Notes: generated from the sequence alone by a model not told the origin. A DNA stretch of 64,000 nucleotides from Sodaliphilus sp. (GCA_045114065.1 JBGUJU010000099.1:9579-73578); one strand, 5' to 3'; counted from the stretch's first letter, positions 3,292-31,981 are shown. Program-made: numbers and translations.

Positions 3292-4632
3292 ATGTTCAAC
3301 AAGAAGTTTTTCTACATTATTCTATTAATGTTAACAGGCAATGTCCTGAGCGCACAAGCCCAGATGGCATTGTCACTTGACGAGTGCATCCGCATCGCCC
3401 TGAACGAGAATCCTACCATCAAGGTGCAGGAGATGGAAATCACCCGCGTGGACTACAGCCACAAGGAGGCCCTGGGACAGTTGTTCCCCACCATCAACCT
3501 GGCAGGACAGTACCAACGCAACCTGTCGCTGCAGACGATGTACATGGACACCCCCAACGGCACCATGGCCATCAAGATGGGTAGCGACAACACCCACGCA
3601 GCGGGTTTCCAGGCACAGATTCCGCTGGTCGTGCCCCAGTTGTGGAAGTCCATCAAACTGAGTGAGAACCAGATTCTGCAGAACGTGGAGAAAGCCCGCG
3701 CCAACAAGCTGTCGCTGGTCAATCAGGTAGAGAAGGCCTATTACGCCCTGCTGCTGGCCCAAGACAGCAAGCGCGTCATCGAGGAGAACCACGCCACTGC
3801 ACAGCTGAATGCCGACATTTTCAAGAAGAAATATGAACTGGGCGCCGCGTCAGAGTATGACGTGCTGCGTGCCAACGTCGCCGTGAGCAACCTCGAGCCT
3901 TCGATTGTTGAGGCCGAGAATGCCATTGTTGCCCTCAAGCTCCAGTTGAAGGTGCTCATGGGCATGGACGTGAGGAACGAGTTCACACCCAGCCAGCAGT
4001 TGAGCGACTTCAGGGGCGAGATGTATGAGCGCGTATTGAGCCACACTTTGGGCTCGGACACCACGCTTGCCAACAACACCTCCCTCAAGGCACTGGACCT
4101 GCAGACCGACTATCTGAAGAAAGCCCTCGATGTGCAGAAGATGGCATGGTACCCCACCCTGAGCGGTAGCGCCAGCCTGATGTGGCACTCGATGAACAAC
4201 GGCAGCCCGTTCTCCGGCCTGCGCTGGAGCCGTGCGTCTAACGTCGGCTTGACGCTCGCCTTCCCCATCTTCCAGGGCGGCCAGCGCTACTACAAGCAGA
4301 AACAGGCCGAGATTGCTGTCGATGAGATGAAATGGCAACGTGAGAACCTGGAGCGCACCCTCCACATGCAGGTTGCCACCCAGAACGATGCCATCGCCAA
4401 GAACCTGAAACAGATCAAGAGCAACGAGGATGGTGTCATGATGGCCGAGAAAGCCAACGACATCATGCAGCAGAGCTTCAAGATCGGTGCCGCCTCATTC
4501 ATCCAGCTGCGCGACACCGAGGACGCCCTAATGGCTGCCCGCCTGGCCTATTTCCAGGCCATCTACAATTATCTGGTTGCCGAGAGCGACCTGGAATATG
4601 TGCTGGGCAACACCCACTACGTGAGACAGTAG
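3292..4632 (+). CDS. TolC-family outer-membrane efflux protein
   Basis: Signal peptide, then two-repeat OEP architecture (LSLDECIRIALNENPTIK.., ..LRDTEDALMAARLAYFQAIYNYL). First gene of the TolC-MFP-RND order typical of Bacteroidetes. Confidence 0.9.
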   Translation: MFNKKFFYIILLMLTGNVLSAQAQMALSLDECIRIALNENPTIKVQEMEITRVDYSHKEALGQLFPTINLAGQYQRNLSLQTMYMDTPNGTMAIKMGSDNTHAAGFQAQIPLVVPQLWKSIKLSENQILQNVEKARANKLSLVNQVEKAYYALLLAQDSKRVIEENHATAQLNADIFKKKYELGAASEYDVLRANVAVSNLEPSIVEAENAIVALKLQLKVLMGMDVRNEFTPSQQLSDFRGEMYERVLSHTLGSDTTLANNTSLKALDLQTDYLKKALDVQKMAWYPTLSGSASLMWHSMNNGSPFSGLRWSRASNVGLTLAFPIFQGGQRYYKQKQAEIAVDEMKWQRENLERTLHMQVATQNDAIAKNLKQIKSNEDGVMMAEKANDIMQQSFKIGAASFIQLRDTEDALMAARLAYFQAIYNYLVAESDLEYVLGNTHYVRQ

Positions 4633-9049: not shown

Positions 9050-9343
9050 ATGAAAGCGATATTTATAGCCTTTGACGAGGCCTACTATGAGCGCATCGTC
9101 GAGAAATTGCACCTGCTCAACTGCCGTGGTTTCACGGGCTGGCGCGAGGTGCAGGGACGTGGCAGCAAGACGGGTGAGCCCCATTACGCCACCCATGCCT
9201 GGCCATCAATTGCCTCGGCCATCCTGACCGTTGTTGACGACCGCCGCGTGGACGTCGTACTCGACGAGTTACACCAGATGGATCTGGCGACACCCAAACT
9301 GGGCCTGCGCGCCTTTGTCCTCCCCGTTGAGCGCACCATCTGA
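9050..9343 (+). CDS. Small (97 aa) P-II-like, transporter-associated protein (uncertain family)
   Basis: The size and the beta-alpha-beta pattern (MKAIFIAFDEAYYERIVEKL..GFTGWREVQGRGSKTGEPH..) resemble the small P-II-fold proteins that follow RND pumps in Bacteroidales. The family name is recalled from memory, not tested. Confidence 0.5.
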   Translation: MKAIFIAFDEAYYERIVEKLHLLNCRGFTGWREVQGRGSKTGEPHYATHAWPSIASAILTVVDDRRVDVVLDELHQMDLATPKLGLRAFVLPVERTI

Positions 9344-10383
9344 TGAGTGACAAGAACATATTACCGGCTACCGGAACCCAGCGCATCGGTTATATCGATG
9401 CGCTGCGGGGTTTTACTATGTTCCTGGTCGTGTTTATGCACGTGGGGACGGTGTGCTGGGGCATCGTCGGTAAGGGCATCTCCTTCCATGACTATCTGGG
9501 ACAGGTGAGGATGCCCATGTTCTTCTTCATCAGCGGCTTTGTTCTCTATAAGCCCGACGTGGTGTGGAACCTGAGCCACATTGTGCGTTTCTTCAAACGC
9601 AAGATTCCCGTCCAGTTGCTTGGACCCTTCATCTTTTTCGCCGTCTGCCTGCACGTCAACGACATCTCATTGTATACAGGCTTGCTGGAGAAGCACAAGT
9701 ATGGCTACTGGTTCACACTGGTGTTGCTGGAGTTCTTTGTAATCTATGCCGCCGTCAGGTTCTGTATCCGCAACCGGTGGTACAAGGCGGTGCTCATCGC
9801 CATCGGACTGGTGCTCTACTACTTTTGCTGGTCATCGATGACATCAGGCAACCAGACCATCGACAACCTGTTCGGCCTGCTCTCGGTCCACAAGTGGAGG
9901 TATTTCATCTTCCTGGTATTCGGAGCCTTTGCACACGAGCACTTTGACATGGTGCAACGGTGGCTGGACGGCAAGTGGGTACTCCCGGTGTGCATCGCGT
10001 TTTACCTGCTGGTCAACGCCTTTGGCGACGTGTTGCCCGTCAATGAAATCCCCATGCGCTTCCTGCTATCCACGACAGGTGTGGTCGTGTTGTTTGCTTT
10101 CTTCCGCAAGAAGCAGGCGCTGTTCTCACGTGAGAAGGCCTTGGGACGCACGATGCAGTATGTCGGCCGCCGCACGCTTGACATTTATCTGATACACTAC
10201 TTCCTGCTTCCCCGAAACTTGAATTTCATCACGGTCTTCACCGACCATCCCATGCCCATCATCGAGACGGCTGTGTCGACGCTTATTGCCATCCTCATCA
10301 TGGCAGTCTGCCTGCTCATCGGCAATATCATCAGGCTCAGTCCGTGGCTCGCATTCTGGATTTTCGGCACTAAAACGAAGTAA
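9343..10383 (+). CDS. Membrane acyltransferase (acyltransferase-3 family)
   Basis: GYIDALRGFTMFLVVFMHV motif and ~10 predicted TM helices. Its start ATG overlaps the previous stop (TGATG). Confidence 0.8.
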   Translation: MSDKNILPATGTQRIGYIDALRGFTMFLVVFMHVGTVCWGIVGKGISFHDYLGQVRMPMFFFISGFVLYKPDVVWNLSHIVRFFKRKIPVQLLGPFIFFAVCLHVNDISLYTGLLEKHKYGYWFTLVLLEFFVIYAAVRFCIRNRWYKAVLIAIGLVLYYFCWSSMTSGNQTIDNLFGLLSVHKWRYFIFLVFGAFAHEHFDMVQRWLDGKWVLPVCIAFYLLVNAFGDVLPVNEIPMRFLLSTTGVVVLFAFFRKKQALFSREKALGRTMQYVGRRTLDIYLIHYFLLPRNLNFITVFTDHPMPIIETAVSTLIAILIMAVCLLIGNIIRLSPWLAFWIFGTKTK

Positions 10384-10453: not shown

Positions 10454-10461
10454 TATCTTTG
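10454..10461 (+). promoter_or_regulatory. -7 box TAnnTTTG
   Basis: tatctttg ends 10 nt before the ATG at 10471. This supports the MKKVLVILVM start. Confidence 0.45.
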
Positions 10462-10470
10462 TCCGCTGAA

Positions 10471-12477
10471 ATGAAAAAGGTTCTGGTCATATTGGTGATG
10501 TTGCTGGTCGCCGCGACGATGGATGTCGCGGTAGCACAGTTCACACAGGAGAGCGCTTCCAACGCTCCCAAGGCCAAGAAGCAGCGCGTGGAGCCGTCGG
10601 TGGCATGGAGCGTAAGCGAGCCGTTGGGCCTGCACTACACCTCGACCATCGACACCATTCACCTGAACTATCACCGCACGATGGTGCCCTCGATGGTGAG
10701 CGATGCCTGGCTCACTACCGGCAACTATGGCGCACCGGGACAGAACGAGATTTTCTTTGAGCGGCCATCGACGAGCGACTTCTTCTTTGAGGACGCCATC
10801 GTGGCATGGCTGCACAACACGGGCACGATGCGTTTCTACAATACGCGCATCCCCATGACACTGCTCAGCCACTCGACGGGCGGCGACAAGTACAGCAACC
10901 TGGACCGCACCAAGTTGGAATTTTCGGGCAATGTGAACCGCAAGACCCAAGTGGGTGCCGGTATTGACTACATCTATAGCAAAGGTTCCTATGACATGCA
11001 GGCCGACAAGGACTTCACGTGGCGCCTATTCGGGTCGCACATGGGTGACCGCTACGAGATGCAGACTTTCTTTGACCACTACAACTACACCACCAAGGAG
11101 AGCGGCGGCATCACCGACGACCGCTACATCACCGATCCTGCCGAGGTGCAGGGCGGTGAGACCCGTGTGGACAACAAGAGCATCCCTACCCTGCTGCGTG
11201 CGACCCACAACCACATGGAGGGTAGTCAGCTATGGCTCAACCAGCGCTACAAGGTGGGGTTCTACCGTTATCGCCGCGACAGCATCACCGATACCATCAT
11301 CGACCGCACCTATGTGCCGGTGACGAGTTTCATCTGGACCCTGGATTTCAAGCACGCCAAGCACCAGTTCTTGAACAGTTCAAGCAGCGAGGACAAGGGA
11401 TACTTTGACCACACCTACCTGTCGCTAGATGGCACCGACGAGACGACGAGTTACTGGCGACTGCGCAACACCGTGGGTGTGTCGATGCTCGAGGGTTTCA
11501 ACAAGTATGCCAAGTTCGGTTTCTCGGTCTATGGCACCCACGAGGTGAGACGTTACACCCAAGTGACCGACAGTGTCACGGGCACAATCCTGCCCGAGGG
11601 GCTGGAAGTCGTGCCTGCCATAGTACCGCATCGCACGACCCAGAACTTGCTGTGGCTAGGAGGACAGTTGACCAAGCAACGTGGCTCGCTGCTGCGTTAC
11701 ACAGCCACGGCACAGTTCGGTGTGCTGGGCGAGGCCGCTGGCGAGGTGGACATCACGGGCGACGTGACCACACGCTTCAAGATGCTGGGCGACTCGGTGA
11801 GCATCAAGGGCTACGGCTACTTCAAGAACTTGGCGGTGCCCTATCTGCTGAATCACTTCGTCTCCAACCATTTCATCTGGGAGAACAACTTCTCCAAGAC
11901 CAAGCGCGTGCGCGTGGGTGGTGAGTTGGACATCCCCTTCTCGTGGACCAATGTCAACGTGGGCTACGAGACCCTGACCGACTACATCTATTGGGATATG
12001 GATGGTCTGCCTGCCCAGCATAGTGGAGCCATCCATGTGCTGAGCGCACGACTCCGACAGGGTCTGCACTTCAAGGCCTTCAACTGGGAAAACAGTGTGA
12101 CCTTGCAGACCAGTAGCAACGAGCAGGTACTGCCCTTGCCCAAGTTTGCCATCTACAGCAACCTGTATGCCACGTTCACCATTGCCCGCGTGCTGCATGT
12201 GCAGATGGGCGTGGACGGCAACTACTACACCAAGTACTATGCACCTGTCTACAACCCCGCGACGATGACCTTCCATAGCCAGCACGAGATGGAGTGCGGC
12301 AACTTCGCCATCATGAACCTGTATGCCAACTTCAAGATGAAGCAGGCACGCTTCTTCGTCGCCTGGACCCACTTCAACCAGAAACTCCACAGCGGCGACG
12401 CCTATTTCGCCATGCCCCACTACCCCCTCAACCCCGCCCGCCTGCAACTCGGCGTCAGCGTCAACTTCGTCAACTAA
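10471..12477 (+). CDS. Outer-membrane beta-barrel protein ('putative porin' family of Bacteroidetes)
   Basis: Signal peptide, alternating aromatic/hydrophilic beta-strand pattern, and a C-terminal strand ending ..LQLGVSVNFVN. Confidence 0.7.
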   Translation: MKKVLVILVMLLVAATMDVAVAQFTQESASNAPKAKKQRVEPSVAWSVSEPLGLHYTSTIDTIHLNYHRTMVPSMVSDAWLTTGNYGAPGQNEIFFERPSTSDFFFEDAIVAWLHNTGTMRFYNTRIPMTLLSHSTGGDKYSNLDRTKLEFSGNVNRKTQVGAGIDYIYSKGSYDMQADKDFTWRLFGSHMGDRYEMQTFFDHYNYTTKESGGITDDRYITDPAEVQGGETRVDNKSIPTLLRATHNHMEGSQLWLNQRYKVGFYRYRRDSITDTIIDRTYVPVTSFIWTLDFKHAKHQFLNSSSSEDKGYFDHTYLSLDGTDETTSYWRLRNTVGVSMLEGFNKYAKFGFSVYGTHEVRRYTQVTDSVTGTILPEGLEVVPAIVPHRTTQNLLWLGGQLTKQRGSLLRYTATAQFGVLGEAAGEVDITGDVTTRFKMLGDSVSIKGYGYFKNLAVPYLLNHFVSNHFIWENNFSKTKRVRVGGELDIPFSWTNVNVGYETLTDYIYWDMDGLPAQHSGAIHVLSARLRQGLHFKAFNWENSVTLQTSSNEQVLPLPKFAIYSNLYATFTIARVLHVQMGVDGNYYTKYYAPVYNPATMTFHSQHEMECGNFAIMNLYANFKMKQARFFVAWTHFNQKLHSGDAYFAMPHYPLNPARLQLGVSVNFVN

Positions 12478-12479
12478 GG
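12436..12479. repeat. Direct repeat copy 1 (functional 3' end plus stop of the porin gene)
   Basis: gcccgcctgca..cttcgtcaactaagg. A degenerate second copy lies at 13752-13794. Confidence 0.75.
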
Positions 12480-12499
12480 TCTCTTAAACATCCATTGGT

Positions 12500-13726
12500 A
12501 TGAGTGACATCAAGAACAATGCCGACGAATTACCTCGCATAGTGAAATCCCACGACATTCACATTGATACAGATTATGCCAAGTGGATTGCTGAGGTAAA
12601 GCACCGCTACCGTTCGGCACAAGTGAAAGCTGCTGTCCGGGTCAATGCCGAAAAACTGCTGTTCAACTGGCAGCTCGGCCGAGACTTAGTCCAAAAGAAA
12701 GCCGAGGAACGATGGGGAGCAGGAGTGGTCGAGCAGGTAAGTCTTGACCTGAAGCGGGAGTTCCCTAATGCCGGAGGATTTTCCACGTCCAACTTGTGGT
12801 TTATGAAACGCTGGTATTTGTTCTATACACAAGGGGATGCCCAAATTCTTCAACAAGTAGGCAAAGAATTACAACTTCTTGAAAATCAGCATAAAACAAA
12901 ACTCTACCAAGTTGGTAAAGAATTGGAAGGAGAAAAACTTTACCAAGATGGTAAAGAATTTCCATTACCTTTTGCCCTTGTGCCATGGAGACACCATATC
13001 GAGATCCTATACAGATGTAAATCCATCGATGAAGCATTGTTCTATATCGCCAAAACGATTGAGCAGGGATTGAGTCGCGATGCCCTCATCAATTGCATAA
13101 AAACGAATCTGTATGAGCATCAAGGGAAGATAGTCAACAACTTTGCCGACCACCTGCCTGATACGCAGAGCAAACTTGTTCAAGAAGTACTGAAAGAGAA
13201 CTACGATTTTGGATTTGCATCGGTCGAACATGAAGTTTACGATGAAGCTGAACTGGAGGAGGCTCTCTCGCAAAATATAACCGACTTACTATTGGAAATG
13301 GGGTCTGGATTTGCTTTCTTGGGCCGACAACAGCAATTGGTCGTTGGAGGGCGTACCCGCAAGATTGATCTCTTGTTCTACCACATCCGACTGCGCTGTT
13401 ACATTGTCTGCGAACTGAAAGCCAAGCCCTTTGAACCTGAGTATGCTGGAAAACTGAACTTCTATGTCAATGCAGTTGACGAATTGTTGAAGACCGAAGA
13501 AGAGAACCCGACTATAGGACTGCTTGTCTGTTCCGATATGAACAAGACTGAAGTTCAGTGGTCGTTCCGAGGTATCAGCACACCAATGGGAGTAGCAACA
13601 TACAACAATATTCAAATCAAAGACGCACTGCCCTCCCAAGAGCAACTAGCAGAACGCGTGCAGCTTCTCCAGAAAGAATTGCAAGAGACCAAACGGTTAA
13701 TGAATAAGGCCAAATCACACGAGTGA
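12500..13726 (+). CDS. YhcG-like PD-(D/E)xK nuclease (DUF1016 family)
   Basis: N-terminal YhcG-type helical region (LVPWRHHIEILYRCKSIDEALFYIAKTIEQGLSRDAL). C-terminal nuclease core (KIDLLFYHIRLRCYIVCELKAKPF, i.e. D..ELK). Contains a short internal LYQ(V/D)GKE(L/F) duplication. AT-richer than its flanks by eye. Confidence 0.85.
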   Translation: MSDIKNNADELPRIVKSHDIHIDTDYAKWIAEVKHRYRSAQVKAAVRVNAEKLLFNWQLGRDLVQKKAEERWGAGVVEQVSLDLKREFPNAGGFSTSNLWFMKRWYLFYTQGDAQILQQVGKELQLLENQHKTKLYQVGKELEGEKLYQDGKEFPLPFALVPWRHHIEILYRCKSIDEALFYIAKTIEQGLSRDALINCIKTNLYEHQGKIVNNFADHLPDTQSKLVQEVLKENYDFGFASVEHEVYDEAELEEALSQNITDLLLEMGSGFAFLGRQQQLVVGGRTRKIDLLFYHIRLRCYIVCELKAKPFEPEYAGKLNFYVNAVDELLKTEEENPTIGLLVCSDMNKTEVQWSFRGISTPMGVATYNNIQIKDALPSQEQLAERVQLLQKELQETKRLMNKAKSHE

Positions 13727-13751
13727 CAAACTCTAATATTGCCGATTCCCT

Positions 13752-13794
13752 GCCCGCCTGCAGGCCTGCGTTTCAGTCACTTCGTCAACTAAGG
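13752..13794. repeat. Direct repeat copy 2 (decayed relic of the porin gene 3' end)
   Basis: The first 11 and last 15 nt, including the taa stop context, are identical to 12436-12479. The middle ~17 nt is partly conserved. Confidence 0.7.
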
Positions 13795-14024
13795 CATCAC
13801 GCTAAGCCTCTAAGGTTTTATTTTTTAATGTAGGGACCAACGCAGAGACCTCACGCTAAGATCTAATAGGAAGATAATCAGCGCTATCACTATTGAATAC
13901 ATGAATGACCATGAATGGGCCATTCATCATTGTTATTCATAAACATTCATGGGCATTTATGGGTATTCGTGTCCTTCTGTTGATTTAATTGATATCGTTC
14001 TTTTAGTAGTTTGAAAAAAAAGTG

Positions 14025-14032
14025 TAATTTTG
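14025..14032 (+). promoter_or_regulatory. -7 box TAnnTTTG
   Basis: taattttg lies 56 nt upstream of the aminotransferase ATG. Confidence 0.45.
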
Positions 14033-14087
14033 TCGTCTGAATTAACAACTTCAATATCATTATCAACCAATATTAGAAATTTAGATT

Positions 14088-15281
14088 ATGCCTAAACTAT
14101 CAGATCGCAGCGTGAAGATGCCGGCATCGCCCATCCGCAAGCTTGCTCCGTTTGCCGCCGAAGCCAAGAAGCGCGGTATCAAAGTGTATCACCTGAACAT
14201 CGGTCAGCCCGACATCCACACCCCCGAAGAGGGTCTGGAAGCAATCAAGCACGTGGACCGCAAGGTGCTGGAGTATTCGCCCTCACAGGGCATTCCCAGC
14301 TACGTGGAGAAACTGGTGGGCTACTATAAGCGCTATGACATCAACCTGAATGTCGACGACATCATCGTGACCTGTGGTGGCAGCGAGGCCGTGCAGATGG
14401 CATTCATGGTGTGCCTGAACCCTGGTGACGAGGTCATCATCCCCGAGCCCGCCTACGCTAACTATATGGGCTTTGCCTGCGAGACCGGTGCTGTGGTTCG
14501 CACCATCACCACCCACATCGAGGACGGCTTTGCTCTGCCTCCCGTCGAGGAGTTTGAGAAGGTCATCAATGAGCGCACCCGTGCCATCATGATCTGCAAC
14601 CCCAACAACCCGACCGGTACGCTCTACAGCCGCGAGGAGCTGATGCGCCTGCGCGACCTGGTGAAGAAATACGACCTGTACCTGTTTGCCGACGAGGTTT
14701 ACCGCGAGTTCATCTACAGCGACGCTCCCTACACCAGCGCCATGCACCTCGAGGGTATCGAGAACAACGTGATCATGATCGACAGTGTGTCCAAGCGCTA
14801 CAGCGAGTGCGGTATCCGTATCGGTGCCTTCATCACCCGCAACAAGGAAGTGCGTGCCGCTGCCATGAAGTTGGCTCAGGCCCGTCTGAGTCCTCCTCTG
14901 ATCGGCCAGCTCATTGCCGAGGCTTCGCTCGACGCTCCCCAAGCCTATCACAAGGGCGTGTATGACGAGTATATTGCTCGCCGCAACTGCCTGGTCGAGG
15001 GCCTGAACAAGATTCCCGGAGTCTTCACCCCGATGCCCATGGGTGCCTTCTACACCGTTGCTAAGCTGCCGGTGAAGGACATCGACGACTTCTGCCGCTG
15101 GTGTCTTGAAGAGTTTAACTATGAGGGCGAGACCGTGATGATGGCTCCTGCCAGCGGTTTCTATGCTACCCCCGGCCTGGGCAAGGACGAGGTTCGCATG
15201 GCCTACGTGCTCAAGATCGACGACCTGAAGCGTGCCCTCGTGGTGCTCGAGAAAGCCCTCGAAGCCTACAACGCCCGCTAA
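14088..15281 (+). CDS. PLP-dependent class I/II aminotransferase (aspartate/aromatic type)
   Basis: PIRKL.., NIGQPD, NPNNPTG, and the PLP-lysine motif SVSKRYSECGIRIG. 397 aa. Confidence 0.9.
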   Translation: MPKLSDRSVKMPASPIRKLAPFAAEAKKRGIKVYHLNIGQPDIHTPEEGLEAIKHVDRKVLEYSPSQGIPSYVEKLVGYYKRYDINLNVDDIIVTCGGSEAVQMAFMVCLNPGDEVIIPEPAYANYMGFACETGAVVRTITTHIEDGFALPPVEEFEKVINERTRAIMICNPNNPTGTLYSREELMRLRDLVKKYDLYLFADEVYREFIYSDAPYTSAMHLEGIENNVIMIDSVSKRYSECGIRIGAFITRNKEVRAAAMKLAQARLSPPLIGQLIAEASLDAPQAYHKGVYDEYIARRNCLVEGLNKIPGVFTPMPMGAFYTVAKLPVKDIDDFCRWCLEEFNYEGETVMMAPASGFYATPGLGKDEVRMAYVLKIDDLKRALVVLEKALEAYNAR

Positions 15282-15282
15282 A
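15245..15282. repeat. Direct repeat copy 1, 38 bp (last 12 codons plus stop of the aminotransferase)
   Basis: gctcgagaaagccctcgaagcctacaacgcccgctaaa is identical to 16640-16677. Confidence 0.95.
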
Positions 15283-15311
15283 CCCTACCGGCCTCTATTT
15301 ACACAATATCA

Positions 15312-15350
15312 CTACTGCCGGGTCTCTTAAAACTAGAGACTCGGCAGTAG
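15312..15350 (+). terminator. Hairpin terminator
   Basis: Stems ctactgccgggtctct and agagactcggcagtag (one G-T pair), 7-nt loop, then ctttt. Confidence 0.7.
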
Positions 15351-15366
15351 CTTTTAAATAATGCGG

Positions 15367-15430
15367 ATTTTTTGGAGCACTACTTCAGATTTTTACTGAT
15401 TTTTTGAAGTACTACTTCAGATTTTCTGCT
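15367..15430. repeat. Tandem duplication, 2 x 32 bp
   Basis: attttttggagcactacttcagatttttactg / attttttgaagtactacttcagattttctgct. Confidence 0.85.
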
Positions 15431-15459
15431 TTTTCTTTGCTTATTTCCACTTCATATTT

Positions 15460-15467
15460 TACCTTTG
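15460..15467 (+). promoter_or_regulatory. -7 box TAnnTTTG
   Basis: tacctttg lies 21 nt upstream of the ATG at 15489. Confidence 0.5.
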
Positions 15468-15488
15468 CGGTTACAAAAATGAACTGCT

Positions 15489-16631
15489 ATGTTAGAAAGG
15501 ATATTAAAATTAGAAGAAGTCAAGGATGATAGTCTGTTCCTCTGGGGATCCAGACAGACAGGAAAAAGCACCTTGTTGAAAATGCTTTTCCCTGAGGCTC
15601 CCATATATGACTTGTTGAAGAGTGATGTGCGCATGGCACTGCAGATGCGTCCTGCTTTGCTGCGAGAGGAATGTGAGCTACTCGATGAAGGCGAATTAGT
15701 TATCATCGATGAGGTTCAGAAAGTGCCTGCATTGCTTGACGAGGTTCATTGGCTCATCGAGAACAAGGGTCTGAGATTCATCCTCAGTGGTTCCAGTGCA
15801 CGCAAATTGCGACGTAGCGGTGCCAACTTACTTGGAGGTAGAGCTTTGCGACAGACCTTGTTTCCTCTTGTGAGCGCCGAAATTCCAGACTTTGACCTCA
15901 ATCGAGCGTTGAATCATGGCATGCTACCTCATCACTATCTCATGGAGAATCCCACGATGCGGCTTCAAGCCTATATCGGCGATTATCTGCAACAGGAGAT
16001 TGTAGAGGAAGCCATTGTCAGAAAACTTGACTCCTTTACCCGTTTCCTGCAAGTGGCAGCCCTGAGCAACAGCGAGATTGTCAACTATACCAATATCGCT
16101 CAAGATTGCGGGATTTCTTCTAAGACGGTCAAGGAATATTTCACCATTCTCGAAGAAACAATGTTGGGTTTCTACCTGCCGTCATACACAAATGTCGTCA
16201 AGCGCAGGGTTATTCAGTCGCCCAAATTCTATTTCTTTGATGTGGCTATACCCAACCACCTGTTGCGGCGCGTTCCGTTGCAGCAAGGGACCGACATTTA
16301 CGGGCACGCACTTGAGCATCTGGTCATTCAGGAATTAAGAGCATATCTGTCCTATCGACATAACGACAAAACATTTTCTTATTGGCATACCCTGGATAAT
16401 AAATACGAAGTTGACGCAGTCATTGGCCAAGCCGAGGTGGGAATTGAAATAAAATCGTCCAGGAACGTATCATCTCGAGATACTAAAGGTTTGAAAGCTT
16501 TCGGTGAAGAGTACCCGGCTGCAAAACTATATCTACTCTCTCTGGAAGAACGCCCCCGCAAACTTAATAATGTTGAAGTGTGGCCTGTCGAACAGTTCCT
16601 AAAACGCCTCTGGGCCGAAAAAATCATCTAA
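15489..16631 (+). CDS. AAA+ ATPase with C-terminal DUF4143-type PD-(D/E)xK domain (COG1373-like)
   Basis: Walker A GSRQTGKSTLLK, Walker B LVIIDEVQ, and a C-terminal nuclease-like core YEVDAVIGQAEVGIEIKSS. Confidence 0.85.
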   Translation: MLERILKLEEVKDDSLFLWGSRQTGKSTLLKMLFPEAPIYDLLKSDVRMALQMRPALLREECELLDEGELVIIDEVQKVPALLDEVHWLIENKGLRFILSGSSARKLRRSGANLLGGRALRQTLFPLVSAEIPDFDLNRALNHGMLPHHYLMENPTMRLQAYIGDYLQQEIVEEAIVRKLDSFTRFLQVAALSNSEIVNYTNIAQDCGISSKTVKEYFTILEETMLGFYLPSYTNVVKRRVIQSPKFYFFDVAIPNHLLRRVPLQQGTDIYGHALEHLVIQELRAYLSYRHNDKTFSYWHTLDNKYEVDAVIGQAEVGIEIKSSRNVSSRDTKGLKAFGEEYPAAKLYLLSLEERPRKLNNVEVWPVEQFLKRLWAEKII

Positions 16632-16639
16632 CTGAAGCA

Positions 16640-16677
16640 GCTCGAGAAAGCCCTCGAAGCCTACAACGCCCGCTAAA
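16640..16677. repeat. Direct repeat copy 2, 38 bp (non-coding duplicate of the aminotransferase 3' end)
   Basis: Identical to 15245-15282. Starts 8 nt after the ATPase stop codon. Confidence 0.95.
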
Positions 16678-16695: not shown

Positions 16696-16732
16696 AAACA
16701 GCCGCCGGTTCTTACACTGGCGGCTGTTTCTT
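16696..16732 (+). terminator. Hairpin terminator
   Basis: Stems aaacagccgcc and ggcggctgttt, 12-nt loop, then cttg. Confidence 0.65.
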
Positions 16733-16828: not shown

Positions 16829-17677
16829 ATGGCAATGAGAAGACAACAACAGCCCGCACAGCGGGGACAAATGATCCTGTATCTGGTGCTGCTCGCCCTG
16901 GTGGTGGCTTGCATGGTGGCTCTGAGCCTGTGTGACCGTCCCGCCGAGGGACCTGGTTCACGCCCCAGTGGCGGCGATACCCTGGATATTGCTATCGAGT
17001 ATTCGCCGGTGACCTATTACACCTATGACGACACGCTGGGCGGCTACAACTATGACCTGCTGCGGCTGATGTCCGAAAAGACCGGCTGCCCCATGAAGTT
17101 CCACCCGATGGTGACACTCGAGAAGGCCCTGTCGGGTCTTGAAGAAGGGCTCTATGACGTGGTCGTGGCTCAATTTCCCATGACAGCCCGCGACACGGCA
17201 AGATATGCATTCACCGACCCCATCTACATCGACCAGCAGGTGCTCGTGCAACGCCGCACTAACCATGCTATCCACTCGCAGCTAGAGTTGGCAGGTGACA
17301 CGGTCTGGGTGGTCAAGGGCTCCCCGATGGAAGGACGCATCGCCAGCCTGAGCCGCGAGATCGGCGACACCATCTATGTCCATGTGGATGACGTCTACGG
17401 TCCCGAGCAACTGATGATGATGGTATCAGCAGGCGAAATCCGCTATGCAGTCGTCAACCGTTCCATCGCACGAGCCATGGCAACACGTCTGCCCAATTTG
17501 GACCGTTCGGTAGCCATCAGCTTGTCCCAATTCCAATCCTGGATGGTGGACAAGAACCGTAAAAGTCTGTGTGACAGCCTCAACCAGTGGCACGCACAGG
17601 TGAAACGCGACACGACCACCTATCTGGGTCTGCAACGTCGCTACTTCGGTGGCACCTTCCCCACATTGGCGCGATAG
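16829..17677 (+). CDS. Membrane-anchored solute-binding-protein family 3 domain protein (MltF N-domain-like)
   Basis: N-terminal TM helix, then an SBP_bac_3-like region (DTLDIAIEYSPVTYYTY..GYNYDLLRLMSEKTGCPMKFHP..YDVVVAQFPMTARD..FTDPIY). Confidence 0.7.
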   Translation: MAMRRQQQPAQRGQMILYLVLLALVVACMVALSLCDRPAEGPGSRPSGGDTLDIAIEYSPVTYYTYDDTLGGYNYDLLRLMSEKTGCPMKFHPMVTLEKALSGLEEGLYDVVVAQFPMTARDTARYAFTDPIYIDQQVLVQRRTNHAIHSQLELAGDTVWVVKGSPMEGRIASLSREIGDTIYVHVDDVYGPEQLMMMVSAGEIRYAVVNRSIARAMATRLPNLDRSVAISLSQFQSWMVDKNRKSLCDSLNQWHAQVKRDTTTYLGLQRRYFGGTFPTLAR

Positions 17678-25334: not shown

Positions 25335-27077
25335 TCAATGAGGAATGAACTTGCCGATTTTGGTCGTCAGTTTTTCGCCCAACAGCTTGCGAGCCATCTG
25401 TTTGACGGATCCAGAGCCTGTGGCTAAAGTACTGCGCAGGATGTGGATAGCATCACTCTCGTCATCGCTATCGGTAAAGACCTCAAACACAACGGGGCGC
25501 TCTTTAGGTTCTGGGCTGAAGAAAGCATCACACACAGCAAGGTATTCCTCCTTGGTGCTGGCGGTCATGTATTCATATCCCAAGTCTTGGGCATAATGCT
25601 TGACCAATTCGGGCGACTTGTTGCCAAAGTGTCCTGCAGCGGCAACGAAGAGGTCGCCTGCGGCACCGAACTTGGAGGCAGGATGGTCCGAATTATGGAA
25701 CTCGGTACCGCGACCATTGTTGACAAGCATGATGCGCACATTCTTGCCCACATGCCTGTTGCCCAGCACATTGATATCATAGAAGAATGCCAGATCACCT
25801 ACTACGGCAAAGTATAGTTTTTCGGGATTGACCAGCGAAGCGCCAATGAGTGTCGACACATCGCCATCAATGCCAAAGCCGCCCACATTGCAGGCAGTTG
25901 TCACCCCCTTGGGGATATCAAAGAAGTTCCAACTGCGCAATGAGTTCAAGATACCCACATGCAGTGTGGACCCATCAGGCACTTTGGAAGCACTCTGCTG
26001 GGCAATCCACACATTGGAGAACGGCAACTCGGGAAGCGCCTCCAGCGTCTGTCGCTGATAATCTCGGCACATGTCCAAATAACCTGTACGCGGCTCAGCA
26101 TCAGTGATATAGTGTCTGAAGAAAATCTCTTCCTCCATCTCAAAGACGTGAGTCAACCTCTTGAAACGGTCACGCAGCTCACCATCGGGACTGACACGCC
26201 ACACTCGGTCAGCAACCAGCAGGTTCATCGAGTCATCACCACTCACTTCTCCGATGTGAATCATCAGGTTAGGACGAATGGGTTCTTTATCCCAATTGAA
26301 CTGCAAGCCGATTAATGCCGGGTGGAACTCATACTTGCCACGGTATCCACCTGTCACGTCCGAGAACACAACTGCATCATGGCTGGCGCAGAAGGCATCG
26401 ACGGCCTCGGTCAGCTCAGGGCTAAACGGCTGATGAGAGCCTACAAAAACCACGATCTTCCCTTCCTTGGGCAATTCGGGGAACTCTTCGTGGGGCATGA
26501 TACGACTGATGACCCGGGTTGGCGGCAATTCCTGCAAAGAAAAGTTCTGGTTATAGGCTGTCTCCAAGTTGATGTGTACCGGGCCTCCGCCATGACGATG
26601 AAGTGCAAGCAAGGCCTTATTAGCCTTGATCTCACAGTCCCATTCCTCGTCTTTGGAACGTACCATATTCAGGAATATGCTGTCAACGACCATGTCAGCC
26701 ATCTGGCTAGAACGGTCTATCACCTGAGGATTCAGATGCCCAACTCGCATCGGGTTCTGGGTAGAAGTCACTGCCAGAATCGGGAGTTTGCGGTAATAGG
26801 CTTCGGTAAGACCCGAGGCATAATTCCTTGATGCCGTGGCGCCCGTGCAGGTCAGCACAACAGGTTCACCACTCTCGCTGGCGATACCGCAAGCCAGATA
26901 GGCAGCCGACCGCTCATCCACCGAGGAAAATACCTTGAAGAACGGGTCATTCTGAACACTGACGACAAAGTTGATATTTGTTGTACCCGGCGAGGCTATC
27001 ACATAACGGATGCCATGGGTCTTGAGCAGTGCGACCAGAATCTGCACATTGCGCTCAGCAGAATAAAATAGATCCAT
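25335..27077 (-). CDS. Thiamine-diphosphate-dependent enzyme (acetolactate-synthase/YerE-like fold)
   Basis: N-terminal TPP pyrimidine-binding region (IRYVIASPGTTNINF..ERSAAYLACGIA). C-terminal TPP motif GDLAFFYDINVLGNRHVGKNVRIMLVNNGRG. Confidence 0.8.
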   Translation of the reverse strand: MDLFYSAERNVQILVALLKTHGIRYVIASPGTTNINFVVSVQNDPFFKVFSSVDERSAAYLACGIASESGEPVVLTCTGATASRNYASGLTEAYYRKLPILAVTSTQNPMRVGHLNPQVIDRSSQMADMVVDSIFLNMVRSKDEEWDCEIKANKALLALHRHGGGPVHINLETAYNQNFSLQELPPTRVISRIMPHEEFPELPKEGKIVVFVGSHQPFSPELTEAVDAFCASHDAVVFSDVTGGYRGKYEFHPALIGLQFNWDKEPIRPNLMIHIGEVSGDDSMNLLVADRVWRVSPDGELRDRFKRLTHVFEMEEEIFFRHYITDAEPRTGYLDMCRDYQRQTLEALPELPFSNVWIAQQSASKVPDGSTLHVGILNSLRSWNFFDIPKGVTTACNVGGFGIDGDVSTLIGASLVNPEKLYFAVVGDLAFFYDINVLGNRHVGKNVRIMLVNNGRGTEFHNSDHPASKFGAAGDLFVAAAGHFGNKSPELVKHYAQDLGYEYMTASTKEEYLAVCDAFFSPEPKERPVVFEVFTDSDDESDAIHILRSTLATGSGSVKQMARKLLGEKLTTKIGKFIPH

Positions 27078-27093
27078 AATATCAAATTATAGA

Positions 27094-28122: not shown

Positions 28123-28178
28123 TAGTTTATGGAGAATTCAATCGATGGACAGTTACAAAAAACATCAGATGCACATCA

Positions 28179-29024
28179 TCATTTCCATCGTGCATTGATT
28201 GTCTTACCGTTGTTGCAAGTGATGACCTGGCCTGAAATACAACTTGAAGCATCCGAGAGCAGAAAGACTGCCGTTTCAGCAACTTCTTCGGGCAGATAGA
28301 CTCTACCGTTGGGATTGAACGGACAATTGATGTTGTCCTCGGTATAATGCGACATATTAGTTGCTGTCACCCCTGGAGCAATAGCATTTACCCTAATACC
28401 TTTCTTAATATATTCATAAGCTAGTCCCTGTACCAGACTGTTAATCGCAGCCTTGGTCAATCCATAGGGTCTGATGTCTGCCATGTCACCCGTTTCAGAA
28501 GAAATAAAGATGACATGTCCCTTGACACCATTCTTTTCCATATGAGTCACCACTCGTTGAGTCAGGAAAAACGGACCACGGAAATTAGTATTAAACTGCC
28601 TATCAAAGCCCTCAATTGTAACACGACTGAAAGCCTTCTCATGCAGCGAGATGCCCGCATTGTTCACAAGACAGTCTATATTCCCCAGTTTTTTCTTCGC
28701 CTGATCAACAAACTCATCAAATGTCTCCACTTGGGTCAAGTCCAAGACCAACGCTTCGCATCCCAGTTGAGCCGCAATATGTTCTAGCTTTTCCTTGCTC
28801 CGGGCAGCTATCAACACATTGGCTCCTTCGGCAACAAATCGCTTAGCCATTGCCTGCCCGATGCCACTAGTGCCTCCTGTAACAACGATTCGCTTCCCTT
28901 TCAAACGTTGACCAGGCTGGATAAATGAAATATCAGCCTTTACAACCTGGTTATGCTTGATATAGTTCTTGATTTTTTTTGAAAAAGGTAGTTTCATTCG
29001 AGAATAAACAAGATTTATTGGCAA
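28179..29024 (-). CDS. Short-chain dehydrogenase/reductase (SDR)
   Basis: VTGGTSGIGQAMAKRF (TGxxxGxG), NNAG, and a YxxxK-type region (YGLTKAAINSL). There is an unusual ~45-aa N-terminal extension; an alternative start is at 28997. Confidence 0.85.
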   Translation of the reverse strand: MPINLVYSRMKLPFSKKIKNYIKHNQVVKADISFIQPGQRLKGKRIVVTGGTSGIGQAMAKRFVAEGANVLIAARSKEKLEHIAAQLGCEALVLDLTQVETFDEFVDQAKKKLGNIDCLVNNAGISLHEKAFSRVTIEGFDRQFNTNFRGPFFLTQRVVTHMEKNGVKGHVIFISSETGDMADIRPYGLTKAAINSLVQGLAYEYIKKGIRVNAIAPGVTATNMSHYTEDNINCPFNPNGRVYLPEEVAETAVFLLSDASSCISGQVITCNNGKTINARWK

Positions 29025-31932: not shown

Positions 31933-31981
31933 TGGTCTATCGTTAGATGATTGTCAATACATCTCAAACTACGTCTGCCGT

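What the first reader, a model, noticed from the sequence alone, without database searches (positions are those of the whole stretch)
12436..16677. Recurrent pattern: two neighbouring single-gene PD-(D/E)xK cassettes, each inserted right after a host stop codon and bracketed by a duplicate of that host gene's 3' end
Seen in sequence: two independent insertions lie within 4 kb.

(a) A YhcG/DUF1016 nuclease gene starts 20 nt after the porin stop. It is followed by a decayed copy of the last ~44 nt of the porin gene.

(b) An AAA+/DUF4143 gene sits behind the aminotransferase. It is followed by a perfect 38-bp copy of that gene's last 12 codons plus stop.

Both cargo proteins carry a D..E.K nuclease-type core: KIDLLF..IVCELK, and EVDAVI..IEIKSS. 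Both inserts look AT-richer than their flanks by eye. Neither has an integrase, transposase or terminal inverted repeats.

Established knowledge: duplication of a target gene's 3' end is the classic scar of site-specific integration into gene ends, but such elements encode their own recombinase. Both DUF1016 and DUF4143 belong to the restriction-endonuclease-like fold superfamily and are patchily distributed, multi-copy genes in Bacteroidota.

Inference: these may be minimal mobile or homing-like cassettes whose own nuclease promotes insertion at gene ends. Alternatively they are cargo captured by an in-trans recombinase. I am not aware of this behaviour being described for either family.
Basis: partly seen in the sequence, partly recalled or inferred. 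Interest (0 to 1): 0.7.

Follow-up and report, generated by a model that had tools for sequence, protein, structure and literature searches.

The report
Nuclease gene cassettes flanked by duplicated gene tails
Two single-gene cassettes encoding candidate anti-phage nucleases were inserted, without any recombinase, right behind two neighbouring host genes, each leaving a duplicate of that gene's tail; this resembles a rarely studied mode of gene mobility known from restriction-modification genes, and it turns out to recur in one of the commonest candidate defence gene families.

Summary
A perfect 38-bp direct repeat (15245-15282 / 16640-16677) brackets a 1357-nt unit carrying one AAA_14+DUF4143 gene. 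A decayed 47/48-nt repeat (12432-12479 / 13748-13794) brackets a 1268-nt unit carrying one DUF1016/YhcG gene. Each repeat is the upstream gene's tail through its stop codon.

Related Muribaculaceae genomes have clean empty sites at both positions. Cargo GC3 is 0.49-0.50, against 0.70-0.81 for host genes. Between two host species the cassettes are 96-98% identical, while most flanking genes are about 70-90%.

PADLOC assigns the cargo to the untested defence candidates PDC-S02 and PDC-S01.

The pattern recurs for DUF4143: 17 of 60 independent contexts carry a flanking repeat, against 0 of 57 control genes. About half of these repeats are tails of different host genes. It did not recur for YhcG (one site among eight contexts).

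The repeats share no core. The units have no terminal inverted repeats and no recombinase.

The closest known kind is "insertion with long target duplication" of restriction-modification genes. My favoured mechanism is inferred, not shown: host homologous recombination integrates a circularised fragment that carries the cassette plus a piece of a conserved gene tail. Nuclease-driven self-insertion is not excluded.

The parts
10459..12477 (+). Host porin gene (Porin_10), target of insertion (a)
   Evidence: Pfam PF14121, E 9e-176. Syntenic in L001, L002 and L004-L006.
12432..12479 (+). Upstream (functional) copy of the porin tail: last 43 coding nt + TAA + 2 nt
   Evidence: Direct-repeat families D7 and D16; global alignment 38/48.
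12480..13747 (+). Inserted unit (a), 1268 nt: 20-nt leader, YhcG gene, 21-nt trailer. Absent from L002, L005 and L006.
   Evidence: Empty sites. GC 0.45. No terminal inverted repeats.
12500..13726 (+). Cargo gene (a): DUF1016_N + YhcG_C PD-(D/E)xK nuclease-family protein, 408 aa; PADLOC candidate PDC-S02
   Evidence: Pfam E 5e-33 and 4e-51. PADLOC PDC-S02, E 9e-125. GC3 0.49.
13748..13794 (+). Downstream, decayed orphan copy of the porin tail
   Evidence: The same copy is 41/42 identical in L081. It is absent in L180/L181, where YhcG sits at the same site.
14088..15281 (+). Host class I/II aminotransferase, target of insertion (b)
   Evidence: Pfam PF00155, E 1e-50. 80 orthologous loci.
15245..15282 (+). 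Upstream (functional) copy of the aminotransferase tail
   Evidence: Perfect 38-bp repeat D2.
15283..16639 (+). Inserted unit (b), 1357 nt. Absent from L001-L007.
   Evidence: Empty sites. GC 0.446. No terminal inverted repeats.
15283..15365 (+). Site-specific 'filler' that looks like a foreign gene's 3' UTR: a spacer plus a terminator-like hairpin at 15312-15350. It is not shared with DUF4143 cassettes at other sites.
   Evidence: Hairpin of 16 pairs with a T tail. Missing from the L090, L100 and L103 cassettes. Not found in the 80 aminotransferase loci.
15366..15425 (+). Two 28-nt direct repeats (15366-15393, 15398-15425), each holding the palindrome GAAGTAnTACTTC or a near variant. Conserved in related cassettes at other sites. 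Probable operator, followed by a Bacteroidetes-type -7 box TACCTTTG at 15460-15467.
   Evidence: Repeat family D4. Alignment with L081, L090, L100 and L103. Four copies in L195. The operator and promoter reading is inference from own knowledge of the Bacteroidetes TAnnTTTG promoter motif.
15489..16631 (+). Cargo gene (b): AAA_14 ATPase + DUF4143 (PD-(D/E)xK) protein, 380 aa; PADLOC candidate PDC-S01
   Evidence: Pfam. PADLOC PDC-S01, E 1e-54. Walker A at residue 20 and D..ExK at 307-321. GC3 0.50.
16640..16677 (+). Downstream orphan copy of the aminotransferase tail, 8 nt after the cargo stop codon
   Evidence: It is followed by sequence collinear with the empty sites.
16696..16729 (+). Native aminotransferase terminator hairpin, now serving the cassette gene
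   Evidence: Inverted repeat I21. An equivalent hairpin follows the aminotransferase stop at the empty sites of L001-L007; L001's is the same sequence.

Best explanation
WHAT IT IS (shown)
Two unrelated single-gene cassettes encode PD-(D/E)xK-family candidate defence proteins: YhcG/DUF1016 (PDC-S02) and AAA_14-DUF4143 (PDC-S01). They were acquired horizontally and independently at two adjacent gene ends of a Muribaculaceae (Sodaliphilus-like) rumen bacterium. Each was acquired by 'insertion with long target duplication'. The last 34-43 coding nt plus the stop codon of the upstream host gene are present twice. The first copy keeps the host gene intact. The second is an orphan tail in front of the native downstream sequence.

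HOW IT MOST LIKELY HAPPENS (inferred)
1. No element-encoded or site-specific recombinase is involved.
2. A piece of donor DNA carries the cassette plus a fragment of the neighbouring gene's tail.
3. That piece is trimmed by exonucleases and circularised.
4. It integrates into a naive chromosome by a single (Campbell-type) homologous crossover within the conserved coding tail.

WHAT THIS ACCOUNTS FOR
- The tail is duplicated on both sides of the insert.
- The duplicate stops at the stop codon, because donor and recipient are alike only in coding sequence.
- Donor-specific 'filler' is left next to the cassette.
- The other repeat boundary is variable.
- The flanking repeats then allow host-mediated excision, re-integration and gene conversion, and ordinary flanking recombination spreads the filled locus between related species.

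The encoded nuclease may raise the frequency of such events by making breaks, as proposed for restriction enzymes. That step is untested.

The confidence of 0.5 applies to the whole statement including the inferred mechanism. The descriptive part (independent horizontal insertions with long target duplication and no recombinase in the units) I hold at about 0.9.
For: SHOWN
- Repeats and single-ORF content of both units.
- Empty sites in relatives, with the native terminator located after the second copy.
- Foreign composition: GC3 0.49-0.50 against 0.70-0.81.
- Window against L081: cassettes 96-98% nt identical; porin, SBP and downstream genes about 70-90%; the conserved aminotransferase 93-97%.
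- Recurrence: 17 of 60 independent DUF4143 contexts carry a flanking direct repeat of score >=20, against 0 of 57 non-adjacent control genes (Fisher p = 4e-6). The only control genes with repeats sit next to a cassette, and two of them are further DUF4143 paralogues.
- Eight or nine of those contexts duplicate tails of different genes: aminotransferase, FtsW, a ComM-like Mg-chelatase and others. Lengths run from 19-23 nt to about 200 nt, and the repeats end within a few nt of the stop codon in all but one case (+13 nt).
- A screen of 2553 ORF tails over 2.13 Mb found no other cargo type between tail duplicates.

POINTING TO HOMOLOGOUS RECOMBINATION
- The repeats share no common core, and the units have no terminal inverted repeats.
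- The cassette occurs in either orientation relative to the target gene.
- The ends of the cassette carry site-specific filler. One is the 83-nt piece with a terminator-like hairpin at 15283-15365, absent from sister cassettes. Others appear to be remnants of a former ComM-tail copy behind the cargo stop in the aminotransferase-site and FtsW-site cassettes.
- The two copies co-vary with the local allele in different host lineages.

LITERATURE
- Recircularised non-replicating DNA plus a single crossover gave 109-950-bp duplications of the lacZ end in E. coli, about ten times more often than homology-facilitated illegitimate recombination (PMC3240628).
- Long target duplications spanning stop or start sites are documented for restriction-modification genes (PMC2853133).
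Against: - No circular intermediate, and no same-species filled/empty polymorphism, was observed. Only two extra same-species contigs were available, and both are filled.
- The donor that should carry the 83-nt filler behind an aminotransferase orthologue was not found among 80 species.
- A 38-bp homology is close to the lower limit for RecA-type recombination.
- A simple single crossover predicts reciprocal donor/recipient chimeras in the two copies. Instead, both copies match the local allele in several lineages, which needs heteroduplex repair or later gene conversion.
- The first arrival of a cassette next to a new target gene still needs an illegitimate event. In the FtsW case the cassette abuts the stop codon with no 3'-UTR filler.
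- The strong enrichment for this one family is not explained by passive recombination alone.
- 43 of 60 DUF4143 contexts show no repeat.
Confidence: 0.5

Rival explanations
1. Self-mobilising nuclease cassette. The encoded ATPase-nuclease (DUF4143), or the YhcG nuclease, makes staggered or paired breaks at gene ends. The cassette is joined in, and fill-in synthesis duplicates the recipient's own tail. This would be a recombinase-free, homing- or transposon-like element.
For: - Strong family-specific association of flanking repeats with DUF4143 genes.
- Recent events have perfect or near-perfect repeats that match the local allele: window 38/38, L119 31/31, L144 39/40.
- The junction 'cargo stop | CCGCATCCT' in the ComM tail is the same in at least three host lineages, and their two copies match their own ComM allele.
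- In three contexts the orphan copy starts directly at the cargo stop codon.
- Double-strand breakage was proposed as the common property behind long target duplication of restriction-modification genes (PMC2853133).
Against: - The cassette ends are not conserved, and there is variable filler on both sides.
- Repeat lengths from 19 to about 200 nt do not fit an enzyme-defined stagger.
- No DNA enzyme is known to sense stop codons, yet one repeat boundary sits within a few nt of the stop in nearly all cases.
- 43 of 60 contexts have no repeat.
- Nothing here tests nuclease activity.
Confidence: 0.2
2. Homology-facilitated illegitimate recombination of linear donor DNA. One end recombines homologously inside the conserved target gene. 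The other end joins illegitimately a little upstream in the recipient's tail, displacing it as an orphan 3' end, as proposed for Rhs/CDI/T6SS orphan arrays.
For: - It shares the boundary logic of the favoured model: homology ends at the stop codon and the second junction is variable.
- Donor filler is present next to the functional copy.
- There is a precedent for orphaned 3' regions (PMC5361080).
- Most known long-target-duplication cases are in naturally competent species (PMC2853133).
Against: - Experimentally, homology-facilitated illegitimate recombination usually deletes recipient DNA rather than duplicating it. In E. coli it was about ten times rarer than the single-crossover duplication route (PMC3240628).
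- It does not explain why the illegitimate joint so often lies within 0-35 nt of the cargo stop codon.
Confidence: 0.15
3. Cargo mobilised in trans by a site-specific (tyrosine or serine) recombinase encoded elsewhere. The flanking repeats would be attL/attR, and the units would be decayed or cis-mobilisable remnants of larger integrative elements.
For: Duplication of a target gene's 3' end is the classical scar of integrase-mediated insertion (own knowledge). comM is a known hotspot for integrative elements (own knowledge), and a ComM-like tail is a recurrent site here.
Against: - Ten independent repeats share no core; only one chance 10-mer is shared.
- Repeat lengths vary tenfold.
- In every repeat-bounded unit tabulated (1259-1574 nt) the repeats enclose only the one gene, which is hard to obtain by repeated decay of larger elements.
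- The cassette orientation varies.
- No integrase domain was found in either unit or among the eight ORFs scanned at 25-38 kb of the window. The rest of the window was not scanned.
Confidence: 0.07
4. Nothing mobile. The genes are vertically inherited, the short duplications are coincidental local events or assembly artefacts, and the relatives lost the genes.
For: - YhcG sits at the same porin site in a species whose cargo and flanks are equally diverged from the window, which is compatible with vertical descent since insertion.
- No filled/empty polymorphism was seen within the species.
Against: - Foreign GC3.
- The cassettes are much more conserved than their flanks between species.
- Close DUF4143 relatives (87-91% protein identity) sit at unrelated loci, each with its own tail repeat.
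- Independent assemblies agree.
- The empty sites keep the native stop-to-terminator arrangement.
Confidence: 0.03

Closest known systems
'Insertion with long target duplication' of restriction-modification genes (Nobusato et al. 2000, Gene 259:99, recalled from memory; Furuta, Abe & Kobayashi 2010, NAR, PMC2853133)
   Same: - Nuclease-type defence genes are inserted with no integrase or transposase.
- They are flanked by long direct repeats of variable length, from 30 to over 400 bp.
- The repeat is single-copy at empty sites in relatives.
- The repeats often span a translation stop or start, so the target gene stays intact.
- A single-gene case (mcrA) is known.
- The mechanism is unknown; double-strand breaks were suspected.
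   Different: - The cargo here is not a recognised restriction-modification system. It belongs to two uncharacterised families, PDC-S01/DUF4143 and PDC-S02/DUF1016.
- For DUF4143 the signature is frequent (about 28% of contexts) and spread across many habitats.
- The orphan copy often starts at, or within 35 nt of, the cargo stop codon.
- Cassettes appear to carry remnants of earlier target tails.
- The shortest repeats (19-23 nt) are below the 30-bp criterion of that study.
Single-crossover integration of recircularised, non-replicating DNA that duplicates a gene end (Amarir-Bouhram et al. 2011, PLoS One, PMC3240628)
   Same: It produces exactly this architecture: the intact gene end, then foreign DNA, then a partial copy of the gene end. 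The duplication length is variable and set by how much homology survived degradation.
   Different: That was a laboratory construct with 109-950 bp of homology and a selectable marker. Here the homology is 19 to about 200 nt, the substrate is natural, and no intermediate was observed.
Orphan 3' ends and immunity arrays at Rhs/CDI/T6SS loci (e.g. Kirchberger et al. 2017, PMC5361080)
   Same: Incoming DNA recombines in a conserved upstream coding region and displaces the resident 3' part downstream as an orphan.
   Different: There the displaced part is a variable toxin tip with its immunity gene, and the incoming DNA is an allelic module of the same locus. Here a foreign gene is added, and the orphan is a short non-functional tail of a housekeeping gene.
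Integrase-borne genomic islands and cis-mobilisable elements inserted in gene 3' ends (tRNA, tmRNA, comM and others)
   Same: Targeting of gene 3' ends, with duplication that restores the gene.
   Different: Those carry or depend on a site-specific recombinase and have a fixed att core. Neither is found here.
Free-standing homing endonuclease genes
   Same: A small selfish nuclease gene sits between conserved host genes, and the same site is occupied in different hosts (the ComM tail).
   Different: Homing copies the gene by double-strand-break repair without target duplication. The nuclease specificity is unknown here.

Membership tests
Insertion with long target duplication (criteria of Furuta et al. 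2010) | Insert is absent from an otherwise collinear related genome (an empty site exists) | tested here: met
   Porin runs directly to the aminotransferase in L002, L005 and L006. The aminotransferase runs directly to terminator and SBP gene in L001-L007.
Insertion with long target duplication (criteria of Furuta et al. 2010) | Flanking direct repeat longer than 30 bp that is present once at the empty site | tested here: met
   38 bp perfect for (b). 47/48 nt, decayed, for (a), with 41/42 in L081. There is a single copy, the gene tail, at the empty sites.
Insertion with long target duplication (criteria of Furuta et al. 2010) | No mobility gene in the insert; insert shorter than 20 kb | tested here: met
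   The units are 1268 and 1357 nt, each with one ORF carrying only DUF1016_N/YhcG_C or AAA_14/DUF4143 domains.
Insertion with long target duplication (criteria of Furuta et al. 2010) | Repeat length and sequence vary between events | tested here: met
   19-23 nt to about 200 nt across DUF4143 contexts, with no shared core.
Insertion with long target duplication (criteria of Furuta et al. 2010) | Insert contains restriction and modification gene homologues | tested here: not met
   The cargo matches PDC-S01 and PDC-S02 only, with no methyltransferase. The mode of insertion fits; the cargo class differs.
Site-specific integrative element or cis-mobilisable element | Integrase or recombinase gene in the element | tested here: not met
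   A single non-recombinase ORF per unit.
Site-specific integrative element or cis-mobilisable element | Conserved att core shared by copies of the element | tested here: not met
   No shared 9-mer among 10 repeats, apart from one chance match.
Classical DNA transposon / IS / MITE | Terminal inverted repeats and a short target duplication of fixed length | tested here: not met
   Best terminal inverted-repeat scores are 6-8, against a null median of 6 and maximum of 11. Duplications vary from 19 to about 200 nt.
Integron gene cassette | attC-type imperfect palindrome at the cassette's 3' end, within an array next to intI/attI | tested here: not met
   No palindromic element at the 3' end: the orphan tail starts 8 nt (b) or 21 nt (a) after the cargo stop codon. 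There is no array; the cassettes are separated by a housekeeping gene.
Free-standing homing endonuclease gene | Site-specific cleavage of the empty allele by the encoded nuclease | not testable with these tools
   Only the PD-(D/E)xK motif is seen. Recurrence of the same ComM-tail junction in several hosts is compatible but not diagnostic.
Free-standing homing endonuclease gene | Insertion without target duplication | tested here: not met
   Long duplications are present.
PADLOC phage defence candidates PDC-S02 (YhcG) and PDC-S01 (AAA_14-DUF4143) | Match to the PADLOC profile HMMs | tested here: met
   E 8.7e-125 (PDC-S02) and E 9.6e-55 (PDC-S01).
PADLOC phage defence candidates PDC-S02 (YhcG) and PDC-S01 (AAA_14-DUF4143) | Protection against phage | not testable with these tools

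The most novel reading that the evidence does not exclude
PDC-S01 (AAA_14-DUF4143) proteins, and perhaps YhcG, are not primarily host defence genes. They would be autonomous selfish elements of a new kind: the ATPase-nuclease itself creates the breaks that insert its gene next to conserved gene ends with long target duplications, without a transposase or integrase. This would supply the missing mechanism for 'insertion with long target duplication'. It would also explain why these genes are so abundant, multi-copy and so often 'embedded' inside other systems.
Probability: 0.15. Interest if true: 0.85.

Novelty: new member of a known kind. Interest (0 to 1): 0.55.

Why it matters
PDC-S01 is reported as the most frequent single defence-candidate locus in rumen genomes, and as the fourth most common defence across prokaryotes (PMC13356809, PMC12988326). 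Its function is untested, and it was nominated because it is found embedded in other defence systems.

If more than a quarter of its genomic contexts carry the scar of a recombinase-free insertion, two things follow.

1. Its abundance and its embedding may partly reflect mobility rather than defence. That matters for 'guilt-by-embedding' and 'guilt-by-association' discovery pipelines.
2. The family offers thousands of natural replicates for solving the 25-year-old open question of how genes insert with long target duplications. Until now that rested on a few dozen restriction-modification cases.

For annotation, the short orphan gene tails (for example the 59-aa ORF in L090) should be recognised as scars, not genes.

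Tried and rejected
- The 83-nt filler (15283-15365) was searched in all 209 held loci, to find a donor species with it behind an aminotransferase. It occurs only in the same filled locus.
- A viral-contig scan with YhcG gave no relatives.
- YhcG at other sites showed no tail duplicate: L184 (next to an AccI restriction-modification system), L189, L201/L203, L206, and E. coli K-12 and other strains.
  - L204 has a 33-nt duplicate of the 5' start of the upstream Vsr gene instead.
  - In L180/L181, YhcG is at the same porin site but the orphan tail is missing.
- I looked for same-species filled/empty polymorphism through the exact aminotransferase protein. Only two contigs came back, and both are filled.
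- Other genes occupy the same two intergenic sites in relatives: a lipoprotein in L001, a TonB-dependent receptor in L004 and a 279-aa ORF in L021. The window also has an extra acyltransferase at 9343-10383. None has a tail duplicate.
- Three further 'tail duplicates' inside the window (about 35.0/37.7 kb, 43.0/45.5 kb and 51.7/55.1 kb) arise from tandem paralogues, not cassettes.
- An enzyme-defined target-site duplication and an att-core model were considered and set aside, because of the length variability and the lack of a common motif.
- PDB sequence search gave nothing useful for either protein. Structure prediction was not run, because it would not bear on the mobility question.

Full report
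1. WHAT IS IN THE WINDOW

The region 9-20 kb encodes, all on the + strand:
- an acyltransferase (9343-10383);
- a Porin_10 porin (10459-12477);
- a DUF1016_N/YhcG_C protein (12500-13726);
- a class I/II aminotransferase (14088-15281);
- an AAA_14/DUF4143 protein (15489-16631);
- an SBP_bac_3 protein (16829-17677).

A perfect 38-bp direct repeat lies at 15245-15282 and 16640-16677. It comprises the last 34 coding nt of the aminotransferase, its TAA stop and one further base. In the sister assemblies L207 and L081 the identity ends exactly at the stop codon.

The porin tail (12432-12479) recurs at 13748-13794, with 38 of 48 aligned columns matching, one 1-nt gap and a perfect 16-nt end. In the window alone this is marginal: it scores 16, and the maximum among unrelated control genes is 17. 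The related species represented by L081 keeps the same copy at 41/42 identity, so the duplication is real and has decayed here.

The inserts have GC 0.45 and GC3 0.49-0.50. The neighbouring host genes have GC 0.53-0.58 and GC3 0.70-0.81. Each repeat-bounded unit (1268 and 1357 nt) holds one ORF, no recombinase domain and no terminal inverted repeats.

2. THE INSERTS ARE REAL INSERTIONS

A scan of species-representative genomes with the aminotransferase gave 80 loci. The closest (93-97% protein identity) are rumen Muribaculaceae/Sodaliphilus-like MAGs.
- In L002, L005 and L006 the porin stop is followed within about 120-180 nt by the aminotransferase promoter region.
- In L001-L007 the aminotransferase stop is followed by a short spacer, a GCCGCC..GGCGGC terminator hairpin and the SBP gene.
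- The window sequence after the second repeat copy (16678 onward) is collinear with these empty sites. L001 even shares the same hairpin. The sequence after the first copy is not collinear. The native downstream DNA therefore follows the orphan copy.

Other species carry other genes at the same two intergenic positions: a lipoprotein in L001, a TonB-dependent receptor in L004 and a 279-aa ORF in L021. None of them has a tail duplicate.

3. AGE AND SPREAD

The same filled arrangement occurs in independent assemblies (L081-L089, L118, L207).

L081 belongs to a different species:
- its porin, SBP and downstream genes are about 70-90% identical to the window at nucleotide level;
- the aminotransferase, which is conserved across all relatives, is 93-97%;
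- yet the two cassettes are 96-98% identical.
This indicates recent exchange of the cassettes, or of the whole 4.6-kb block from about 12.2 to 16.85 kb, between species.

A third lineage (L180/L181) has YhcG at the same porin site. There the cargo and its flanks are equally diverged from the window, there is no DUF4143 cassette, and there is no orphan porin tail. The YhcG insertion is therefore the older of the two.

4. WHAT THE CARGO IS

Pfam assigns both proteins to PD-(D/E)xK-type families.

PADLOC profiles identify them as PDC-S02 (E 9e-125) and PDC-S01 (E 1e-54). These are untested 'phage defence candidates', nominated because they are embedded in BREX, DISARM and type I restriction-modification systems (bioRxiv 10.1101/2024.01.29.577857). 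PDC-S01 is reported as the most frequent individual defence locus in 6530 rumen genomes, and as the fourth most common defence across prokaryotes.

The older literature lists DUF4143 as function unknown, and DUF1016 as co-occurring with restriction and mobile-element genes (PMC3424549). Both families also occur on hundreds of plasmids.

5. DOES THE PATTERN RECUR?

DUF4143: yes.
- I collected 89 usable loci falling into 60 independent contexts. They came from a metagenome scan (L100-L179) and from exact-protein look-ups (L081-L099, L192-L198, L201).
- For each gene I scored the best direct repeat between the 900 nt upstream and the 600 nt downstream.
- 17 of 60 contexts score >=20. None of 57 other genes that are not adjacent to a cassette does so (median 10, maximum 17; Fisher p = 4e-6).
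- The five control genes scoring >=20 all sit next to a cassette, and two of them are further DUF4143-family paralogues.
- In eight contexts, plus one with a 19-23-nt repeat, the repeat is the 3' end of a neighbouring gene. Examples:
  - the aminotransferase (window);
  - FtsW (L090, 106 nt, cassette convergent with the target);
  - a ComM-like Mg-chelatase (L100, L103, L192, L198; about 125 nt);
  - unnamed ORFs in L113, L119, L123, L144, L154 and L159 (up to about 200 nt).
- In nearly all of these the repeat ends within a few nt of the target's stop codon. The exception is L123, at +13 nt. The other boundary varies.
- The orphan copy begins 0-35 nt after the cargo stop in the window, FtsW and ComM contexts and in six of the others.
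- The remaining repeat-positive contexts have intergenic or low-complexity repeats, a tandem cassette arrangement (L112) or a 587-bp repeat (L127).
- A cargo-blind screen of 2553 ORF tails over 2.13 Mb found tail duplicates only at tandem paralogues and at these cassettes.

YhcG: no.
- Seven further contexts have no tail duplicate: L184, L189, L201, L204, L206, L180/181 and E. coli.
- L204 shows a 33-nt duplicate of the 5' start of the upstream Vsr gene.
- E. coli yhcG is nevertheless a clean single-gene indel between gltD and nanQ. The empty allele is L210, the filled allele is L211 and K-12 is L209. Its left junction is 2 nt after the gltD stop, and it brings its own hairpin.

6. CLUES TO MECHANISM

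(i) Ten independent repeats share no motif, and the units lack terminal inverted repeats. This argues against an att core or a transposase.

(ii) The cassette lies in either orientation relative to the target gene, but the duplicated segment always ends at the target's stop. The asymmetry therefore belongs to the target, not to the element.

(iii) The conserved part of the rumen cassettes starts about 15 nt before two to four copies of a 28-nt repeat containing the palindrome GAAGTAnTACTTC, and it ends at the cargo stop codon. Outside this part the cassettes carry site-specific filler.
- In the window this is an 83-nt piece with a strong terminator-like hairpin (15312-15350). It looks like the 3' UTR of some gene and is absent from sister cassettes.
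- Behind the cargo stop, the aminotransferase-site (L081) and FtsW-site (L090) cassettes carry about 15-35 nt that resemble the start of the ComM orphan tail, CCGCATCCT.... This looks like a remnant of an earlier residence. The resemblance was judged by eye from short stretches.

(iv) The two copies co-vary with the local allele.
- The window has GAAAGCCCTCGAAGCC in both copies.
- L081 has GAAGGCTCTCGAGGC(C/A) in both.
- Both alleles also exist in cassette-free relatives (L006, L021).
- The ComM copies behave likewise in L100, L103/L198 and L192.

(v) A boundary exactly at a stop codon is what one expects if the event depends on homology between diverged genomes, because coding sequence is conserved and intergenic sequence is not.

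7. MOST LIKELY MECHANISM (inference)

1. A donor fragment comprises part of a gene tail, its downstream filler and the cassette.
2. It is trimmed and circularised.
3. It integrates by a single homologous crossover in the tail of the recipient's orthologue.

This reproduces the observed order: intact gene, donor filler, cassette, orphan tail, native downstream. It gives a variable inner junction, and repeated rounds of trimming limited by selection for an intact ORF would place that junction at or just after the cargo stop.

Exactly this outcome was obtained experimentally in E. coli. Recircularised non-replicating DNA gave 109-950-bp duplications of the lacZ end by single crossover, ten times more often than homology-facilitated illegitimate recombination, which typically deletes recipient DNA (PMC3240628).

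Heteroduplex repair, or later conversion or excision-reintegration between the repeats, would account for the co-variation. Ordinary flanking recombination accounts for the block of high identity between the window and L081.

What remains unexplained:
- how a cassette first comes to lie next to a new gene;
- why this family is so enriched;
- how well 38 bp can support the crossover.

A role for the encoded nuclease in making breaks, as suggested for restriction enzymes, is plausible but untested. The stronger reading, that the nuclease itself performs the insertion, cannot be excluded.

8. COMPARISON WITH WHAT IS KNOWN

The architecture meets four of the five criteria used for 'insertion with long target duplication' of restriction-modification genes: an empty site, a repeat over 30 bp that is single-copy at the target, no mobility genes, and variable repeats. 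That study also noted that the repeats often span translation stops or starts and leave the target intact (PMC2853133). The unmet criterion is the cargo class.

It does not meet the defining features of integrase-borne islands, IS elements or transposons, integron cassettes, or homing endonuclease genes (see the membership table).

I found no report of this behaviour for DUF4143/PDC-S01 or DUF1016/PDC-S02 in the searchable literature.

9. VERDICT

The kind of event is already known from restriction-modification genes, and no evidence ties the insertion to the cassettes' own nucleases.

This is a new member of a known kind, with a useful twist. The signature is common in one of the most abundant candidate defence families, which makes an old mechanistic question tractable and raises a caveat for embedding-based defence-gene discovery.

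Noticed in passing
window 9343-10383: An Acyl_transf_3 gene is absent from L002 and L005 (no homology to it was found in L001, L004 or L006 either) but present in L180 and L207. Its ATG overlaps the upstream gene's TGA (ATGA), it has host-like GC3 (0.77) and no flanking duplicate. This is a third single-gene indel in the same 8 kb, with a different signature.
   Followed up: partly
window 15366-15425; also L090 about 3880-3940, L195 about 2815-2945 (four copies), L112 3820-3933 and 5327-5441: 28-nt direct repeats with the palindrome GAAGTAnTACTTC sit upstream of rumen DUF4143 genes, in 2-4 copies. They are probably an operator for the protein's own DNA-binding domain. In L112 the whole terminator-plus-operator block is repeated downstream of the gene.
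   Followed up: partly
window 12844-12960: Three imperfect 27-nt in-frame repeats lie inside the YhcG N-terminal domain, encoding (L)YQ.GKE(L/F). They contain short inverted repeats that were flagged as terminator-like.
   Followed up: no
L100, L103, L192, L198 (about 125 nt before the stop of a Mg_chelatase/ComM-like gene): The ComM-like tail is a recurrent DUF4143 insertion site with an identical junction (cargo stop | CCGCATCCT) in several hosts. In L198 and L192 the called ComM-like ORF is only 233-256 aa. In L198 an ATPase_2 gene sits directly upstream and a second, convergent DUF4143 gene lies downstream, which suggests an insertion hotspot.
   Followed up: partly
L204 2413-2445 and 4205-4237: A 33-nt duplicate (88% identity) of the 5' start of a Vsr gene lies 11 nt after a YhcG gene, inside a Fic/DpnII restriction-modification island. 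This is a 'head' rather than 'tail' duplication, bracketing Vsr plus YhcG.
   Followed up: no
L209 / L210 / L211 (E. coli gltD-nanQ interval): E. coli has at least three alleles here: empty, yhcG only, and gltF-yhcA-yhcD-yhcE-yhcF-yhcG. Some genomes also have yhcG disrupted by a transposase. The yhcG-only allele replaces 11 nt right after the gltD stop and brings a hairpin at its 5' end.
   Followed up: partly
window 27000-32000: A low-GC island (0.39-0.45) encodes a second Acyl_transf_3 protein, an SDR, a MatE-like flippase and unassigned ORFs. It looks like a polysaccharide-synthesis cassette. No integrase was found among the ORFs scanned.
   Followed up: partly
window 33362-38456: Two tandem paralogous genes encode Peptidase_C10 with a Spi inhibitor domain and a C-terminal dockerin. 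Dockerins are unusual in Bacteroidota.
   Followed up: no
L101 1547-2668; L106 2319-3530; L127 4336-5778; L136 4803-5810; L179 5354-6337: Genes adjacent to DUF4143 cassettes also carry flanking direct repeats. They include two distant DUF4143 paralogues, another putative ATPase (not scanned) and two genes that look Fic/DOC-like by eye (not scanned). This hints that the signature extends to other small defence-type genes.
   Followed up: no
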